Below, in pieces: positions 5,698-14,925 of a stretch of DNA of 64,000 nucleotides. Source of the DNA: Ruditapes philippinarum. Lineage: Eukaryota. Made by a program: the position numbers and the translations under genes. Within the stretch, counting starts at the first letter, position 1, and the number at the start of each line of letters is the position of its first letter. The DNA lies in NCBI RefSeq assembly GCF_026571515.1, contig NW_026862663.1, positions 868,001 through 932,000 on the forward strand. Direction: 5' to 3'. The notes below the pieces were generated by a model. That model worked only from the letters and a program-made list of their open reading frames with translations. It did no database searches and was not told the origin of the DNA.

Positions 5698-6710
5698 TTC
5701 ACCTGGTCAATAAACAGTGTCCTGATATTAAGCATCATGTACGAGTATGTATATTAAAGCGACCAGTTCAATAGCTAATCAGTAGCATAGGTTTATAGCT
5801 AAGGCCAGACATTTTTAAACGAGCCATCTCCGGACCTTCAATGACGGCCTTGCTCGATATGGATTAGACTTGAACAATCCAAGAGCAATGGCTTAGTTAG
5901 ACATTTTAAACAAGGTTTCTAAAGGTAAACTGAAGGTATGCTTAGATAATGCCAAACCATTGCATTGTTGGATTTATTATACAAGGGGTGTAAGGTAACG
6001 GCTTTGGAAGGATGACAACACAAACATTAGTTTGTCGTCAGCAGACCTTTTTATCATGCAGAAGTGCTGAAAGAGGGCACATAAGAATTCATTCCTCTGA
6101 GCATCCATTTTAGTACTGTTCTCAATTTCTTGACCACCGATATTCAAGAATAACTACTGTATGTTGAACATATTCACCAGTTCAAAATTAAATTAATAAC
6201 CATGTTGCTTTGCAGTGCTGAAAGATGTCACAATACTGTAGCATAAGGGATATAAGTCCTGATTACTGTGAATTTAGCATTTTCACATATTTTTATACAG
6301 AAAAGACTTTCAATAGTCAAAATTAACTTGCATTCTTTTGGACTCATGAATTCAATGCTGGAAACTGTAACAATTTTTTTCATAAATTTAACTTGCATAC
6401 CTATTCAAGTGTATTCATCATCCCCTTGGTTAATGCAAGCATATTCACAATTACCTTGTTTCCAGTGGCAAAGTACTTTACCATTATCAGCAACCAGTAG
6501 ATCATTTACTAATCATCAATTAAAATTTTCAAAATTAAGAACAGTTTAAATAATGACTGCATAATACAAAGACATGTTACCTTTTTGCATTTTAATCAAA
6601 CTAAAATGATTTGACATAAATTACAATGAGATGAATGAATGTACAATGTATGAATGAAAAAAGCAATGTTACAGAAACATAAAGTAGATCTCTACAAACA
6701 CTTTTTCAAC

Positions 6711-8121
6711 TTATATTTTAGATTGTTTAGCTTTATTTATTTCATTCATTAGTTCTTTCATGTATTGAATTTCTCTTTGAATTGATTCAACCTTTTCACG
6801 TAGAGCTTTGTTAGTGTCCGAGAGACGAACTTCCTGTTCCTGCAACGTTTCCTTTTCCTGCCTTTTCTTTTCTCGATACCGGGTGGCCGCATTCTTGTTT
6901 TGCACTTTCTTCCTTAGTCTTTTATCTGAAACTTTATGTGAATCATACGGAGAACTTTTAGACTTGTTTTTCTTACTTTTTGATTTAAGTTTTGTGAAAT
7001 CCTCACTTGACACTTGTATACTTTTAGCAGAACTTGACTGGCTGCTACTGTCACTGAAATAGCTGGTATCAATTGTGCTCATGTCTTGACAAGTATCAGA
7101 TGGGGAGGTAGGTCCTGAAGATAAAATTGATTCAACATCTGCATCACAGAAAGAACTTACACTCAGACTCTCTGTCTTAAAGTTGTCCTGTAAAAGTAAC
7201 ACTGGAGCCTCAACAGAAGAGTCAAGTGAAAAATTTTGACCAGACTGTAATGGTTGTAATTCAATAACATCACCATTGTCTAAAGAAACCTCAGGTTGAA
7301 TTAAATCTTCAAAAGAATGGATGACTTGATTGTCAACACCTCCAAGCAACATGTTGATACTATCATAGGTGGGAAAGTCTATATCAGGAACCTCAGCAAC
7401 TGGGGAGATTGCAGCTACTGCTTCCACATGAAGATCTTTCTCAACTGGCTTGAGCAAATCTAGAGATATCTCCGTCTTTGCTGGCTGTTGGCCAGTTAAC
7501 AGGGCCTTCAATATATCAAAGGCAGCCTGTTTCATCCCTTCAGGGCGAGGCTCTGATTTTTCAACTTTAATTGCGACTGGAGCATTTTCACAGCCCCTGT
7601 CAGTGTTCAGGAGGTTTTGGAAATCCACAGTTTCCATCCATTCTTCTCCAAGAGAGTCTAAAATAAAAACAGCACATTATATAAGTTGAGGTTATTGGTA
7701 TCAGAAACAATTTTTATTATGAAAATTTTCAGTCTGCTTGCCAGTTTAGGACATAACAATGATAACATTCAAGAAACTTAATACTGTTAATCAATGTGAG
7801 GACTCAGTTTGTTTTATTTGTGTTTCTCCAAGTTAAACAAATTACAAGTAACTGAAGTATAAGTATCAGATGAACAGACTGAAACTCTCAGCCCTTGTAG
7901 ATAGTGCATATCAATAAATACCAACAAAAATCATAATTACCTGCTGGAGTATCTGTAAGAAGCAAGTCCTCTAGAGACTCCTGGGTAGCTGACTGATATT
8001 TCAGACCCCCATCTAGGCCAAAATCAAGAATGCTACCCTCCGTACCCAGATCATCCACAAACAAGTCTGTTGTCAGACCCAATGGGTCCTCGAACAAATT
8101 CATTTGGTCCATGAATTCCAT
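6711..8121 (-). CDS. ATF4: ATF4/CREB2-like bZIP transcription factor, 375 aa; coding exons 8121-7941 and 7657-6711
   Basis: C-terminal bZIP DKRLRKKVQNKNAATRYREKKRQE...LREKVESIQREIQYMKELM is typical of ATF4/ATF5; N-terminal EEWMETVD motif; phase-1 GT-AG intron 7658-7940; uORF-bearing leader. Confidence 0.93.
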
Positions 8122-8650
8122 CTTGCTTTATTTCTGTCCGACTTTCAAATTGATATATGGCAATTGCCAGGAATAGGAAATGGTGAAAAGACCTGCAAAA
8201 TACAAGGAGAGTCTCGTTAACAAGGGAAGCACACTATTCTGCCAGCGGACATTAAATAATATACACAAAGAAACATTTCATTTTAGAAGGAATCAGTCAT
8301 TTTTATATAGTATTTTCATTAAAATGACCATTATACTTGAACATGTTTTTTAATGTCTTCTGTGTGATTTTCATTCACGCTTTCAAGGACAAATTTATAT
8401 TTCCTTGAGGAGATAATCAACAAAAATTTCATGACATATGAATATATATATATTTAGAAAACTAAAGAAACGTTAATAGATATTCAAACAAATGGATTAA
8501 CAACAACAATGTAGGAAACATTTCTAACATTTTATCATTCAATTTTATTTTCTCAAAATGGCGGGATATGCCACGTTGATAATCACAATGAATTAAATTA
8601 ATCAGTGTTAAAATAATTAATAAAATTGAATAAATTAATACTCACGCCAT
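8051..8650 (-). promoter_or_regulatory. ATF4 overlapping uORF2 (48 aa), spliced 8650-8646 + 8192-8051, overlapping the main CDS out of frame by 71 nt
   Basis: caacATGGC|gtgagt donor joined to ttttgcag|G TCT TTT CAC gives MASFHHFLFLAIAIYQFESRTEIKQDGIHGPNEFVRGPIGSDNRLVCG*. It reads through the main ATG as GAT-GGA and stops at TGA 8053-8051. Confidence 0.8.
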
Positions 8651-8711
8651 GTTGATAATGTAATTGTTCTTGGTGCAAAGCACTGCTTTTGCACAGGTTT
8701 GTTGTGAAGGT

Positions 8712-8723
8712 TCACTCGTCCAT
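8712..8723 (-). promoter_or_regulatory. ATF4 short uORF1 (Met-Asp-Glu-stop)
   Basis: aatATGGACGAGTGA in strong Kozak context, 61 nt upstream of the uORF2 ATG; same 3-codon length as mammalian ATF4 uORF1. Confidence 0.78.
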
Positions 8724-8779
8724 ATTAGCGGTAAGCGTGTTCTGTTATTCTGTATTCGTTACCTTTCAGTCATGATTTG

Positions 8780-9172
8780 CGGCAACGTGCGTAGTTTCAT
8801 CCTATTTTTGCCGAAAAAAGTTCATTTTCCTACGCAAATTATTTTTGATTTCTCTCTAAACGACTTATTTTGAGTCAATATTGCAAATTATTTCTTAGAT
8901 TTTAGTTTTTAATCAATATGATTACCTTGTGAAATGTAAAACTGCTTTAATTAACGTGTTATGAATGGAAAAGTGCAAGAATTATATCAGTAATGCGGAA
9001 GAAGAAAATATGTTATTCGGACAGAAAAATTGCGTCAGAATATTTGGCAATATGCCAAATGACGAACAACGGTCATTGGTTCATATTGACACACCTCTGA
9101 CGTCTTGTTTCTAAATAAAGAAAATGCGGAAAGACCCAAATATATCATGAACGTCCTAAATTATGACCTACA
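8780..9172. promoter_or_regulatory. Putative bidirectional promoter between ATF4 and the MtnK-like gene
   Basis: Divergent genes about 400 bp apart; locally CpG-richer; ATTGCGTCA (9029-9037), ATTGG (9075-9079), TGACGTCT (9098-9105). Transcription start sites not known. Confidence 0.55.
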
Positions 9173-12100
9173 ATGGACATTAAAAAATGGGGTGTGCTTG
9201 TGCGCGAGTGTTCTTATATTCCGGACAATTTGGTACGTTTTAAAATGAAGATATGCAAACTTTAATTAAGCATTAATTCCATTCCATAAATCAATTAAAG
9301 ATAAAATTCAGTTTAAGGGGGGGGGGGGGGGGTTATTTAAATATGACATATACATCATGCGTCGCATACATGCATATACTGTACATACATTACAGTTACA
9401 TGTATGTGTAATTCATGTATACAGTAGAGAACAGAACAGTCTTTATTTATAGTATTATATGGATGAAATTAAAAGATTTGATGTTTCAAAATAAATATGT
9501 TTAAACCAAAACATTTTGAACATTTGAGTACAATATCAAAATATCATATTTTATTAAATTTGTAATAATTTGGCAGAATGTAATTATAATTTATAAAGAC
9601 ATTTACCCTTGTCATGGTAATCTTCATGGAAAATTAAGGTGGTAGTTGTTGTTTTTATAGTTAAATATCCACCAGCAAAACTATTAAAAATTGCTGCAAT
9701 TAATTTCGTTACTTTCTCCAAACAAAGATTTTATTATAGATCTAATTATAATTATTATTACTAAAGGAATAATTTTTTTTTTGAATTAAAACAATCTTGC
9801 AACAGAATTTAGGAATGCACTTTGGAGGTAAACATATGACATACTCTATGAATAACTTTTTCATTTCACAGTTTCGTACTAAACTATGATATAGTCTCAA
9901 GCAAGTAATATATTAGTTGAAGATCGTTTGAAAGTAAAGCTTATATTTTTTTTCCAGAAGTTTTGTAGTTCTGATGAAATATGTGTAGATGAGATAGGAG
10001 ATGGGAACTTGAATGTAGTGCTACGTGTTTACACCAAAGATGGACGCAGTGTCATTGTTAAACATTCCTTGCCTTATATAAAGGTATACATTAAACAAAA
10101 GTCATGTTTATATTATATAATTTGCACATATCATTTATTTAAAGGATGTTAAAATATGTATTAATTTTAAAGCTTTCATTTCTTTGATGAACTATGATTC
10201 AATTTTTATCAACTAAATATTAACCTTCACCATGCTAAATTTGTATAATGGAACAGTTGTCCAACTTCAATTACTTGGAATCTGTATGATGGTTTTAAAA
10301 CCATTGTTGATGTTAGGGGTTTTGTTATCAAAATGCTCCATTTAGCAGCCATTAATGCATTGTAGAGACAGACCAGACAGATGAGTAGTCTGACCTGATT
10401 CTATAATGTTAGCATTTAACATGGCCATAAACATTCATAAGGTTAATATATCAGGTTAGATTTAGCGGTATTTTATGAAAATCTCTTTTTGAACATGTTA
10501 ATATAATAATATTTGACCTTCCAGTGTCTAGGAGAAGGATACCCACTTGGGGTTGCAAGAATTGATGCCGAGTACAAGGCTTTGGTAAAATTTCATCAGC
10601 TGGCTCCTGGCTGTGTCCCTCAACCATACTTTTTTAACAAGCAACACAATGCTGGTATGTTGTTTTTTTCTATCATTTAATGATTCTATTACATAAATAA
10701 ATTTTATGTTTTATTGTGCAGACAATTTATGATTAATTTCACAAATAATGTATTGTTTGAGTTTTCAACAAAATTGACAAATTGTTGTATGTTTGAAAAA
10801 AATTATGATTGCAGTTTACCTGGAAGATCTTGAAGGATATAACATTCTTCAACAGAATCTTATCAGTGGTCAGTTTGATCAGAAGATTGCAGAAAACTTG
10901 GGTCAATCTCTAGCCACAGTTCACAGTAAAACACACATAGGCAAGATTGGGGAGGATGCAATAAATGAGCTTTTTCTACATTTAGAGTAATTTCATTTTA
11001 TAACAACCTTTTGTCAGATGTAAAATCTTTTTGGTAACTATATCTAGAGAAGGTTTTCAGCTGGTTTTAAGCACTATATTAAACAGGTTTACAAACTTTA
11101 CAGACATTTGTTAAACAGATAGTATTTAACTAGTTACCATCTCTTATGTAAAGATACTTATTTTCAGTGTGCCTTTTACTAAAAATAAACATTGTAATTC
11201 CTATGGCACAGAATGGTTTGTGACCCTGAAAACTCAAAGCAGATTGTAGCAGATTGACATAAAAACTGGACACCTTTATTGGCATCCCTTCAAAAACTTT
11301 TTTTATAACATTTTCTTTGGTCTGTCTAACAGTACTTTAAGTTATAGTAAACATTTATGGCTAGGTACTGGTCATTTATATTTTATGAATATTTCAAGAA
11401 AATTGTCATACCTGTTGATATTTGAACCAAACTCCTGAATATTTAAGAGTAAATTGGCACCATTAGTCTAAGACTACACTCTTTTCTTGTTTAAAGCATC
11501 AAGCTAAGGTCCTGCCCCTTGCAAGTAAGAAAGTACAGTGGTCTATTGCCAGGTGGTATGTTGCCAAGAATGAAAATACAGTGGTCTATTGCCTTTAGTC
11601 TGTTGCCAAGTATGAAAGTTAAGTGGTCTGTTGCCATTAATCAGTCGCAAAGTATGAAAGTACAGTGGTCTATTGCCATTAATCAGTCGCCAAGTATGAA
11701 AGTTAAGTGGTCTGTTGCCATTAATCAGTCGCCAAGTATGAAAGTTAAGTGGTCTATTGCCATTAATCAGTCACCAAGTATGAAAGTACAGTGGTCTATT
11801 GCCATTGGTCTGTTGCCAAGTATGAATGTACAGTGGTCTATTGCTGTTGGTCTGTTGCCAAGTATGAAAGTACAGTGATCTGTTGCCAAGTATGAAAATT
11901 CAGTGATCTGTTGCCAGGTATGAAAATTAGTGATCTGTTGCCAAGTATAAAAGACTGTGATCTGTTGCCAAGCATGAAAATTCAGTGGCCTGTTGCCTTT
12001 AGTCTGTTGCCAAGTATGAAAGTTAAGTGGTCTGTTGCCATGCATCAGTCGCCAAGTATGAAAGTTAAGTGGTCTGTTGCCATTAATCAGTTGCCAAGTA

Positions 12101-14925
12101 TGAAAGTTAAGTGGTCTATTGCCATTAATCAGTCACCAAGTATGAAAGTACAGTGGTCTATTGCTGTTGGTCTGTTGCCAAGTATGAAAGTACAGTGATC
12201 TGTTGCCAAGTATGAAAATTCAGTGATCTGTTGCCAAGTATGAAAATTAGTGATCTGTTGCCAAGTATAAAAGACTGTGATCTGTTGCCAAGCATGAAAA
12301 TTCAGTGGCCTGTTGCCTTTAGTCTGTTGCCAAGTATGAAAGTTAAGTGGTCTGTTGCCATTAATCAGTCGCCAAGTATGAAAGTTAAGTGGTCTATTGC
12401 CATTAATCAGTCGCCAAGTATGAAAGTACAGTGGTCTATTGCCATTGGTCTGTTGCCAAGTATGAAAGTACAGTGATCTGTTGCCAAGTATGAAAATTCA
12501 GTGATCTGTTGCCAAGTATGAAAATTCAGTGATCTGTTGCCAAGTATAAAAGACTGATCTGTTGCCAAGCATGAAAATTCAGTGGCCTGTTGCCAAGTAT
12601 GAAGTACAGTGGTCTGTTGCTTTAGTATAAAACTACGATGGTCTGTTGCCAAGTAAGAAAGTACAGTGGTCTGTTGCCAAGTATGAAAGTACAGTGGTCA
12701 TTTGCCAAGTATGAAAGTACATGTACAGTGATCTGTTGCCAAGTAGGAAAATTCACTGGTCTTTTGCAAAGTATGAAGTACAGTGGTCCGTTGCTTTAGT
12801 ATAAAACTACGATAGTCTGTTGCCAAGTAAGAAAGTACAGTGTTCTGTTGCCAGTGGTCTGTTTCCAAGTATGAAAGTACAGTGGTCTATTTCCAAGTAA
12901 GAAAGTACCGTGGTCTGTTGCCAGTTGCCAAGTATGAAATACAGTGGTCTGTTGCCATTTATCAGTTGCCAAGTATGAAAGAACAGTGGTCTGTTGCCAA
13001 GTTTGAAAGTACAGTGGTCTGTTGCCATTTATCAGTTGCCAAGTATGAAAGTACAGTGGTCTGTTGCCAAGTAAGAAAGTACAGTGGTCTGTTGCCAAGT
13101 AAGAAAGTACAGTGGTCTGTTGCCAAGTATGAAAGTACAGTGGTCTGTTGCCAAGTATGAAAGTACAGTGGTCTGTTGCCATTGGTCTGTTGCCAAGTAT
13201 GAAAGTACAGTTGTCTGTTGCCAAGTAAGAAAGTACAGTGGTCTGTTACTTTGATTTACTTGTTATTGTACTTATAACAATCCTTTTTGCATGTTTTGTT
13301 GTTAAATTTCAATTAAACATTCATTTTATTAAGATTATATATTATTTTCCAGCAATTCAACAATGGTTGGGCTGACTGCTGAGTATGTTTTCACTAAACC
13401 ATTCAATAAACCGGATGATACAAACAAATGTTCACCAGAAGTATCAGAACGATTGAATTTATTGTATGAAGATGAAAATGTCCTCTCTGCTGCCAAAGCT
13501 TTGTGTAAGATCTTTACAGAGAAGAAAGAATGTTTGATACATGGTGACCTACATGCTGGTTCTATTATGGTTAAAGGGACGGACACAAGGATGTTTGATC
13601 TAGAGTTTTGTACTGTTGGTCCAGCTGGATACGACCTAGGGGTTGTACTTGCCAACTTTATTTTCACCTATCACAGACATATTAGTACAGAAGAAGACAA
13701 TGACACCCATCGAGTATTTGCTTACAAGATGGTTGATGCATGTAAAGCATTTGGTAAATATATATATTTATAATATTTACTTTTAACAATTATTATTGTA
13801 CTGTCAATAAACTAAAACATGTAATTAAGCATGGAGTTTCATAAATTATGATTTTGTTACCTAAGTGCAGTAACAAGTTAAATCCTTTTATAATTTTATA
13901 GGAGTTAACCTATTACTACACTTGGGTGACATTTTCAACCTGTGCAATGAAGTGTAGACCATCTTTTACGTATTTTCAATATTATGTTTTTTTAAGATAA
14001 TCCAAGAGTCGTAGAATATTACACTTGTTAAATTGAGCTTCATAGTCTTCTTGATAAATATGATTTGTTAAATCATAAGCGTAATTCATAATCATACTCC
14101 CCTTTTGATCTTTAGTTGTAAAAAGCACATTTTTTGTGTGAATGATACACCCTTCAATTTTAATAACTCAAATGTATTTTTACTACATTACTTCATCTAT
14201 TTACATGAACATTATTACAGTGAACATATACCTGGAGAATATGTCAGAAAGTACAGGTAACAGAGATGAGTATGTTAGCAAGCTTCTGTCTGAAACTGCA
14301 GGATTTACTGCCTGTGAAATCATTAGAAGGTAATACTCTTATTTTGTATTTATTTCAAATATAGAAATTAACACATTTGCATCTTTTTAATAAGTAAAGT
14401 AGGTAAGGTCTTTTTAGTATACAATTCATGAGTTAACATTTACCGAATAGTCAAAACAAGTACATGTAAAGGACTTTGATACTTAATAACTTATATACAT
14501 GGCCGAGTGGTTAATTTGTCAGACTAGTAATCTAAGGATTGCTGGCTGTGTGGGTTCAATCACCCTCAGGGGCAAGCAGTTGTTTCCATGAGCAAGAAAC
14601 TTAACACTAATTACTTAGTAGTGGTTGATTCCAAGAATGAATTTGAGTGTTTCAATAAGTTTATAGCTTCCTACACAATCAAACTAAATGATACAAAAAG
14701 TTTTTCCCAGTAAACATAGTATTATATGACTGTATTGCTTTATATATTACCATTTATATTTATTGTAACTGTTGCAGGTTAATTGGTGCTGCACACTATC
14801 CATACTTAGATGGCATGCCTTTAGCAGAGCAAGACTGTCTGGATACAGGGACAACACTTCTAAATGCTTATCATAGAATACATGACATTGATAAATTCCT
14901 TATCATTGCCTTTAAGCTGGTTTAA
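9173..14925 (+). CDS. mtnK: Methylthioribose kinase-like protein (MtnK/MTK family), ~381 aa; exons 9173-9232, 9958-10083, 10525-10654, 10815-10986, 13353-13753, 14221-14329, 14778-14925
   Basis: Exons join in frame (1146 nt, no internal stop). Family motifs EIGDGNLNVV, SVIVKHSLPY, YPLGVARIDAE, YLEDL, VFTKPF, LIHGDLHAGSI, DLEF, GPAGYDLG, GFTACEIIRRLIGAAH. Exon 1 is the least certain. Confidence 0.9.
10220..10447. mobile_element. Short TTAA-flanked MITE-like insertion in MtnK intron 2
   Basis: Begins ttaacctt and ends aaggttaa; a similar element lies at ~61349-61530. Confidence 0.45.
11520..13250. repeat. Complex minisatellite with ~28 bp core gccaagtatgaaagtacagtggtctgtt and ~41-43 bp extended variants, in MtnK intron 4
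   Basis: Dozens of directly visible tandem copies; a mixed block starting near 11878 recurs near 12198. Accounts for the repetitive ORFs between 11519 and 13224. Confidence 0.95.
14500..14690 (+). mobile_element. tRNA-derived SINE with CORE-like domain in MtnK intron 6
   Basis: A box tggccgagtggttaa, B-box-like gggttcaatc, CORE-like ccatgagcaagaaacttaacac, 3' end cacaatcaaactaaat. Confidence 0.7.

What the first reader, a model, noticed from the sequence alone, without database searches (positions are those of the whole stretch)
8051..8773. Mammalian-style ATF4 delayed-reinitiation switch in an invertebrate, with uORF2 created by splicing
Seen: a 3-codon uORF (MDE*, 8723-8712), a 61 nt spacer, then an ATG 5 nt before a gtgagt donor. 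After splicing, this ORF runs 48 codons and overlaps the ATF4 CDS out of frame for 71 nt. All three ATGs have A at -3 and G at +4. A further MTER* micro-ORF (8773-8759) lies upstream. Established: this short-uORF plus overlapping-uORF layout makes mammalian ATF4 translation inducible by eIF2alpha phosphorylation. Inference: the integrated stress response switch is conserved here, and splicing of the 8645-8193 intron could tune it.
Basis: partly seen in the sequence, partly recalled or inferred. Interest (0 to 1): 0.7.

Follow-up and report, generated by a model that had tools for sequence, protein, structure and literature searches.

The report
Clam ATF4 paired-uORF stress switch
This clam's ATF4 gene has the same two small upstream reading frames, and the same intron position, as human ATF4, so it likely makes ATF4 protein mainly under stress; the layout is already known across animals, and the intron is removed in essentially all RNA reads.

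Summary
All coordinates check out: 3-codon uORF1, 61-nt spacer, 48-codon uORF2 overlapping a 375-aa ATF4 by 71 nt. RNA reads confirm the 8646/8192 junction (50 and 903 reads). Two parts fail. (1) MTER: reads stop at 8758-8769, about 0.2% of depth covers its ATG, and the ATG is missing in 2 of 2 other bivalve genomic leaders. (2) Tuning by splicing: 0 of about 972 and 0 of 51 reads enter the intron. Paired ATF4 uORFs are published for Aplysia, Hydra and insects (PMC4176352), and 29 of 32 fetched ATF4 transcripts have them. The intron directly after the uORF2 AUG is published for mammals (PMC3479206). Published primers place the human donor after the same ATGGC, as in 3 of 3 other bivalve genomic contigs. 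What this adds: base-exact conservation of this leader intron between human and bivalves (not found in my searches), and a weakly supported hairpin in the spacer. Stress induction itself is inferred, not measured. The scan index held no earlier ATF4 note.

The parts
8758..8773 (-). Transcription start region; read 5' ends at 8769, 8762 and 8758; the true cap is likely a few bases above, possibly at 8773
   Evidence: the 5' end of the L001 transcript aligns to about 8769; cap position is inference
8759..8773 (-). MTER* micro-ORF: in the DNA, but its ATG is outside about 99.8% of read depth and is not conserved; probably not a working uORF
8712..8723 (-). uORF1, 3 codons, A-3/G+4; predicted to permit reinitiation
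   Evidence: 3 codons in all 5 bivalve leaders compared
8651..8711 (-). 61-nt spacer (61-64 nt in 5 of 5 bivalve leaders)
8673..8694 (-). Predicted hairpin in the spacer; inner 4 pairs invariant in 5 of 5 bivalves with a variable 3-nt loop; no covariation support
8646..8650 (-). uORF2 start (ATGGC) at the end of exon 1
8193..8645 (-). Intron 1, 453 nt, GT-AG, inside codon 2 of uORF2; same position in human and in other bivalves; unspliced reading closes uORF2 after 2 codons and adds 13 ATGs
8051..8192 (-). Rest of uORF2 (48 codons in all), overlapping the ATF4 CDS out of frame by 71 nt
8158..8171 (-). CCTGGC-N4-GCC element in uORF2, invariant in 5 of 5 bivalves at synonymous positions too; nucleotide-level constraint likely
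7941..8121 (-). ATF4 CDS in exon 2; start ATG 8121, in-frame ATGs at 8112 and 8103
   Evidence: N-terminus matches P0001 and P0004
7658..7940 (-). Intron 2, 283 nt, phase 1
6580..7657 (-). Exon 3: bZIP domain, stop ending 6711, 3' end near 6580

Best explanation
This is the ATF4 gene of a venerid-like clam, and its spliced mRNA carries the standard animal pair of upstream reading frames, which likely keeps ATF4 off in unstressed cells and turns it on when eIF2alpha is phosphorylated. Shown: gene identity, exon structure, near-complete splicing of intron 1, read 5' ends just below the MTER ATG, and conservation of the layout. Inferred from mammalian work (PMC2172506): most 40S subunits start at uORF1 (strong context, 35-46 nt from the read ends) and resume scanning after its 3 codons. 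With plenty of ternary complex they reload within 61 nt, translate uORF2 and end 71 nt past the ATF4 start. With eIF2alpha phosphorylated they reload late, pass uORF2 and start at 8121 (137 nt after the uORF1 stop) or at 8112/8103. Intron 1 is an old, normally constitutive feature shared with mammals, not a clam-specific tuner. Its junction lies 66 nt after the uORF1 stop, which would allow decay by NMD as proposed for mammals.
For: Identity: bZIP; 73% to Mercenaria ATF4-like; one match in the own genome. Layout. Splicing and 5' ends. Conservation: 29 of 32 transcripts, 28 in the same frame; donor after ATGGC in 3 of 3 other bivalve genomic contigs, two of them near-identical. [quoted passage not shown] Published for Aplysia, Hydra and insects.
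Against: No translation data for any bivalve here: initiation at each ATG and induction by stress are untested. The spacer is shorter than in mouse (61 against 87 nt), which could raise basal leakage. Human work shows delayed reinitiation is not the whole story (uORF2 is translated under stress, AUG1 is leaky). About 22-26% of read depth is lost between the end of exon 1 and the uORF1 ATG; this is probably ordinary 5' fall-off, but transcripts lacking uORF1 are not excluded. Only 2 of 4 raw RNA runs were informative, and their conditions are unknown.
Confidence: 0.88

Rival explanations
1. Regulated retention of intron 1 tunes the switch in this clam. Retention would close uORF2 after two codons but add 13 intronic ATGs, so it would most likely remove productive mRNA rather than de-repress ATF4.
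For: The same intron is retained under PRMT5 inhibition in human cells, giving an unstable nuclear variant (PMC8933703 passages). The intron position is conserved. One unspliced contig at depth 14.2 in run X15.
Against: 0 of about 972 and 0 of 51 reads enter the intron (95% upper bounds 0.3% and 5.7%); depth 0 over 8299-8540. The X15 unspliced contig is 0.2% of the spliced one (7410.7) and as deep as a promoter contig (14.5), as expected of DNA carry-over. No other donor or acceptor was seen.
Confidence: 0.12
2. The conserved intron acts through the exon-junction complex: termination at uORF1 66 nt before junction 1, or at uORF2 110 nt before junction 2, sends basal ATF4 mRNA to NMD, and stress stabilises it. 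This would add to reinitiation, not replace it.
For: Both distances exceed the 50-nt rule; 68-69 nt in L004 and L002. Proposed for mammals; UPF1 knockdown raises the human spliced variant.
Against: No decay data. Whether molluscan NMD depends on the junction complex was not tested. The transcript is abundant in X15 and X24. An old intron needs no function to stay in place.
Confidence: 0.3
3. A three-uORF switch in which MTER is a further upstream gate, like the vertebrate start-stop element.
For: The ATG has A at -3. RNA-seq loses some 5' bases, and a few reads reach about 8790. Extra weak upstream uORFs are described in arthropod ATF4.
Against: 0.24% of X24 depth covers the ATG. It is absent at the aligned place in L004 and L002, and L001 starts just below it. 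If the cap is at 8773 the AUG would be too close to it for normal scanning (established knowledge).
Confidence: 0.07
4. The uORFs only repress ATF4 at all times, and regulation is transcriptional.
For: uORFs in strong context commonly repress; a CRE-like and a C/EBP-ATF-like motif lie in the promoter (motifs recalled).
Against: uORF1 length (2-4 codons), spacer length (26-64 nt) and uORF2 frame are held across distant animals, which plain repression does not need. The promoter motif is no more frequent than chance (10 found, 12.3 expected).
Confidence: 0.06

Closest known systems
Mammalian ATF4 leader (uORF1/uORF2 delayed reinitiation; Lu, Harding and Ron 2004, PMC2172506)
   Same: 3-codon uORF1; longer uORF2 overlapping the CDS out of frame; further in-frame AUGs near the CDS start; first intron right after the uORF2 AUG, with the same ATGGC|GTGAGT donor.
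   Different: Spacer 61 against 87 nt; uORF2 AUG to ATF4 AUG 76 against about 100 nt; uORF2 147 against 180 nt; no start-stop element; no conserved SL3-like stem in the overlap (window z -0.84; others 0.5, 0.03, -2.77, 0.03); no retained-intron form seen.
Invertebrate ATF4 leaders (Aplysia, Hydra, Tribolium and other insects; Hiraishi et al. 2014, PMC4176352)
   Same: Short permissive uORF1 and long overlapping uORF2; the Aplysia case is a mollusc. That paper also raises transcription starting after an extra upstream AUG.
   Different: Arthropods have a second in-frame AUG in uORF2; the 5 bivalve leaders have one. The word 'intron' has 0 occurrences in that paper's main text; its main supplement could not be searched.
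Human ATF4 variant 1, retained intron 1 (PMC8933703)
   Same: Same intron position; retention ends uORF2 after two codons in both.
   Different: Retention is documented and regulated in human cells; not detected in the clam runs.
Yeast GCN4 leader
   Same: Reinitiation delayed by low ternary complex.
   Different: Several short uORFs and no long overlapping one.

Membership tests
ATF4 paired-uORF switch | Main ORF is an ATF4-family bZIP protein | tested here: met
   PF00170; best named hits are ATF4-like proteins of Mercenaria (73%) and Mya; single match in the own genome. No tree was built.
ATF4 paired-uORF switch | Short (2-4 codon) uORF1 inside the mRNA, in good context | tested here: met
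   3 codons, A-3/G+4, covered by reads
ATF4 paired-uORF switch | uORF2 overlaps the CDS out of frame in the spliced mRNA | tested here: met
   48 codons, 71-nt overlap, junction in 953 reads
ATF4 paired-uORF switch | Spacing and frame conserved among orthologues | tested here: met
   28 of 29 paired leaders in the same frame; bivalve spacers 61-64 nt
ATF4 paired-uORF switch | eIF2alpha with the Ser51 site, and its kinases, present | tested here: inconclusive
   eIF2alpha and the motif found. The GCN2 domain search PF12745 found nothing and its control rang nowhere. An oyster PERK paper was seen as a search listing only.
ATF4 paired-uORF switch | Translation of ATF4 rises on eIF2alpha phosphorylation and depends on uORF1 and uORF2 | not testable with these tools
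   Needs reporters or ribosome profiling
Mammalian ATF4 leader, added layers | First intron immediately after the uORF2 AUG | tested here: met
Mammalian ATF4 leader, added layers | Retained-intron variant | tested here: not met
   0 of about 972 and 0 of 51 reads; two runs, conditions unknown
Mammalian ATF4 leader, added layers | Start-stop element before uORF1 | tested here: not met
   No ATG upstream of uORF1 in the read-supported leader
Mammalian ATF4 leader, added layers | Conserved SL3 stem-loop in the uORF2/ATF4 overlap | tested here: inconclusive
   The overlap folds at -21.2 kcal/mol but z is -0.84; only 1 of 5 bivalves is below z -2

The most novel reading that the evidence does not exclude
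The ATF4 switch is an ancestral bilaterian module with more fixed parts than the two uORFs. An intron pinned five bases into uORF2, base-exact from human to clams, makes uORF2 exist only after splicing and puts a junction complex over 50 nt behind the uORF1 stop as an NMD gate. An undescribed hairpin 14-25 nt after the uORF1 stop, rebuilt from different sequences in bivalves and arthropods, brakes the rescanning 40S and so sets the reinitiation timer on the short protostome spacer. The shared intron position is shown; both functions are untested.
Probability: 0.25. Interest if true: 0.55.

Novelty: new member of a known kind. Interest (0 to 1): 0.25.

Why it matters
As a switch it extends a known animal-wide mechanism to a farmed-clam lineage. 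It warns that ATF4 mRNA levels in bivalve stress studies may not reflect ATF4 protein. The modest new points are that a 5'-leader intron sits at the same base in humans and bivalves, and that a short stem recurs in the uORF1-uORF2 spacer of protostomes. Both give simple reporter tests of whether splicing, NMD or RNA structure help set the reinitiation timer. Two public bivalve ATF4 protein models also appear to have uORF2 fused to their N-terminus.

Tried and rejected
Alternative splice sites at intron 1: the shifted joints (62, 22 and 4 reads in X24, 1 in X23) keep the net 453-nt skip and carry a changed letter beside the junction; rejected as read errors or a minor allele, with no frame change. 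Runs X21 and X22 gave 49 and 55 scattered reads and no joints; not used. No indexed holder was on record as RNA, so only raw runs X23 and X24 count for expression. uORF2 as a conserved (signal-like) peptide: a hydrophobic stretch is shared by 4 of 5 bivalves, but L001 breaks it while keeping the same nucleotides, and synonymous positions are invariant; nucleotide constraint is the better reading. Covariation in the bivalve hairpin: none (covariation term +1.24; 1 of 9 pairs with a double change); the window's spacer alone is not significant (z -1.37, 23 of 200 shuffles as low). Rfam: 0 matches at E up to 1 over 6400-9300. Intron position outside bivalves and mammals: no convincing exon 1 in 19 other genomic or partial loci; untested. 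GCN2 domain search uninformative. The bacterial promoter scan does not apply and found nothing. Promoter TGANGCAA motif is at chance frequency. Earlier scan notes: 0 held all the words; the 2 listed concern other genes.

Full report
Gene and organism. The minus-strand ORF ending at 6711 encodes a bZIP protein (PF00170, E 2.7e-9). Its closest named relative is Mercenaria mercenaria ATF4-like (73% over exon 3), then Mactra, Mya and Dreissena, so the host is a venerid-like clam. The bZIP region has one match in the 1.4-Gb own genome. With read-supported junctions the protein is 375 aa from ATG 8121, and its N-terminus agrees with P0001 and P0004.

Observation. Every coordinate given is right: uORF1 8723-8712 (3 codons), 61-nt spacer, uORF2 ATG 8650 followed by GC and a GTGAGT donor, intron 8645-8193, spliced uORF2 of 48 codons ending at 8051, 71-nt overlap, A-3/G+4 at all three ATGs. 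The uORF1 stop is 137 nt from the ATF4 ATG. Two more in-frame ATGs (8112, 8103) lie in the overlap.

RNA evidence. Four raw RNA runs were laid. X23 and X24 were informative (2,541 and 9,706 reads); X21 and X22 were not (49 and 55 scattered reads). Intron 1 is skipped in 50 and 903 reads, intron 2 in 54 and 681. The 89 shifted joints keep the net skip and reflect a changed letter next to the junction. Depth inside intron 1 is 0 over 8299-8540 and over 8600-8639, against 51 and 972 on the exon side; the upper bound on retention is 0.3% in X24. In contig run X15 an unspliced contig has depth 14.2 against 7410.7 for the spliced one and 14.5 for a promoter contig, which looks like DNA background. 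Limits: the sample conditions are unknown, and a nuclear, unstable retained form could be missed.

MTER. Read ends pile at 8758, 8762 and 8769. Depth over 8770-8779 is 2.3 of 972 in X24. The aligned place has no ATG in L004 or L002, and transcript L001 begins level with about 8769. The CAT of this ATG aligns with an initiator-like CAT in L004 (motif recalled), so the cap may sit on it (inference). MTER is most likely not a working uORF.

Comparison. A scan of metagenome contigs gave 54 ATF4-family loci. I took 32 that show a CDS start with a leader. Of these, 29 have a 2-4 codon uORF followed by an overlapping out-of-frame uORF, 28 in the same frame as the window; L051 is a doubtful case in the other frame, and 3 have leaders cut to 45-65 nt. 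By best hit among 17 named proteins most non-bivalve loci are insect-like; this is a rough label. Three bivalve genomic contigs (L002 and L003 near-identical, L004) have a 3-codon uORF1, a 63-64 nt spacer and ATGGC followed by a GTAAG donor. The acceptor I chose in each (pyrimidine-rich, matching the window's exon 2 start; not read-confirmed) gives a 55-56 codon overlapping uORF2.

What is in print. Hiraishi et al. 2014 (PMC4176352; passages and section 13 read; main supplement not searchable) state that Aplysia has the same paired arrangement and find it in insects and Hydra. Lu et al. 2004 (PMC2172506; passages) give the mechanism and the 87-nt mouse spacer. Ait Ghezala et al. [quoted passage not shown] Szewczyk et al. 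2022 (PMC8933703; passages and primer table) show regulated retention of that intron. Their variant-specific primers share the stretch ending ATGGC and then continue GTGAG (retained) or GCTTC (spliced), which places the human donor exactly where the clam's is. Smirnova et al. (bioRxiv 10.1101/2023.07.12.548609; passages) describe SL1 and SL2 before uORF1 and SL3 in the overlap; I saw no spacer hairpin in those passages. PMC13587735 and PMC12839439 (passages) added uORF lengths only. I found no statement that the intron position extends to invertebrates: 0 papers held ATF4 + first intron + uORF + NMD + invertebrates, 2 held ATF4 + bivalve + uORF (listings only), and the listings showed none by title. 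The library lacks most subscription papers, and figures and bioRxiv supplements were not visible, so this is a weak negative.

(a) A hairpin is predicted at 8694-8673. In 5 bivalves its inner four pairs are invariant and the loop varies, but there is no covariation, and alone it is not significant. Across 23 leaders (31 candidates, 8 dropped as over 80% alike; L003 and L051 left out) the spacer has mean z -0.99, and 16 of 23 have a perfect stem of 5 or more pairs. Three control regions gave 4 of 23, 6 of 23 and 3 of 18, with mean z -0.58, -0.04 and 0.25. Mean pairing is 0.51-0.58 at 15-34 nt after the uORF1 stop and 0.25-0.41 further on, but also 0.50-0.54 around the stop itself. The rows are related, so the combined score overstates the case. 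The insect-like stems use a different sequence. (b) CCTGGC-N4-GCC in uORF2 is invariant in 5 of 5 bivalves and is absent from the 26 non-bivalve paired leaders. (c) The uORF1 stop is 66 nt from junction 1 and the uORF2 stop 110 nt from junction 2, both compatible with NMD.

Mechanism. Shown: structure, splicing, 5' ends, conservation, and an eIF2alpha gene with the Ser51-region motif. Inferred: initiation at uORF1, reinitiation at uORF2 when ternary complex is plentiful, and bypass to 8121 when it is scarce. Retention would shorten uORF2 to two codons but insert 13 ATGs, so it would lower output rather than switch it on, in line with the human variant.

Verdict. A real, well-formed, new member of a known animal-wide switch. 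The claims of surprise (invertebrate; made by splicing) are already in print or shared with mammals; the splicing-tuner and MTER additions are not supported. Interest 0.25, for the base-exact intron conservation and the candidate spacer hairpin.

Noticed in passing
proteins P0017 (Mya arenaria) and P0009 (Mactra antiquata): Both public models begin with a stretch resembling the bivalve uORF2 peptide joined in frame to ATF4; likely annotation errors that start at the uORF2 ATG. A true fusion is not excluded; no such joint was seen in this clam's reads.
   Followed up: partly
window 8694-8673 (-); L001, L002, L004, L005; L008, L013, L015, L026, L033, L043, L044: A short stem in the uORF1-uORF2 spacer at a similar distance from the uORF1 stop, with one sequence in bivalves and another in insect-like loci.
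   Followed up: partly
window 8171-8158 (-): 12-nt palindrome inside uORF2 within a bivalve-conserved CCTGGC-N4-GCC element; it includes a CTG with G at +4 in the uORF2 frame. Role unknown.
   Followed up: partly
window 8654-8645 and about 8566-8556 (-): The uORF2 start with the first intron base reads like a YY1-type motif, and a second such motif in the opposite direction lies about 80 nt into intron 1 (motif recalled). A DNA-level reason for the conserved ATGGCG is possible.
   Followed up: no
window about 9105-9030 (-): Promoter cluster: CRE-like GACGTCA, an NFI-like palindrome and TGACGCAA at 9037-9030 (labels recalled); the last motif is at chance frequency in the window.
   Followed up: partly
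L008-L053, uORF2: The second in-frame AUG of insect-like uORF2s nearly always reads ATGGC, like the single intron-flanking AUG of bivalves and human; it may be the homologous start. Intron position in arthropods could not be tested.
   Followed up: partly
window about 11500-12200: Tandem repeat giving repetitive ORFs on both strands.
   Followed up: no
window 6500-6690 and 9438-9476: Runs X21 and X22 give only short partial matches here with unrelated loose ends, as a dispersed repeat or another organism would.
   Followed up: no
L028, L029: ATF4-like ORFs of 873 and 853 aa, over twice the usual length, still with the paired uORFs.
   Followed up: no
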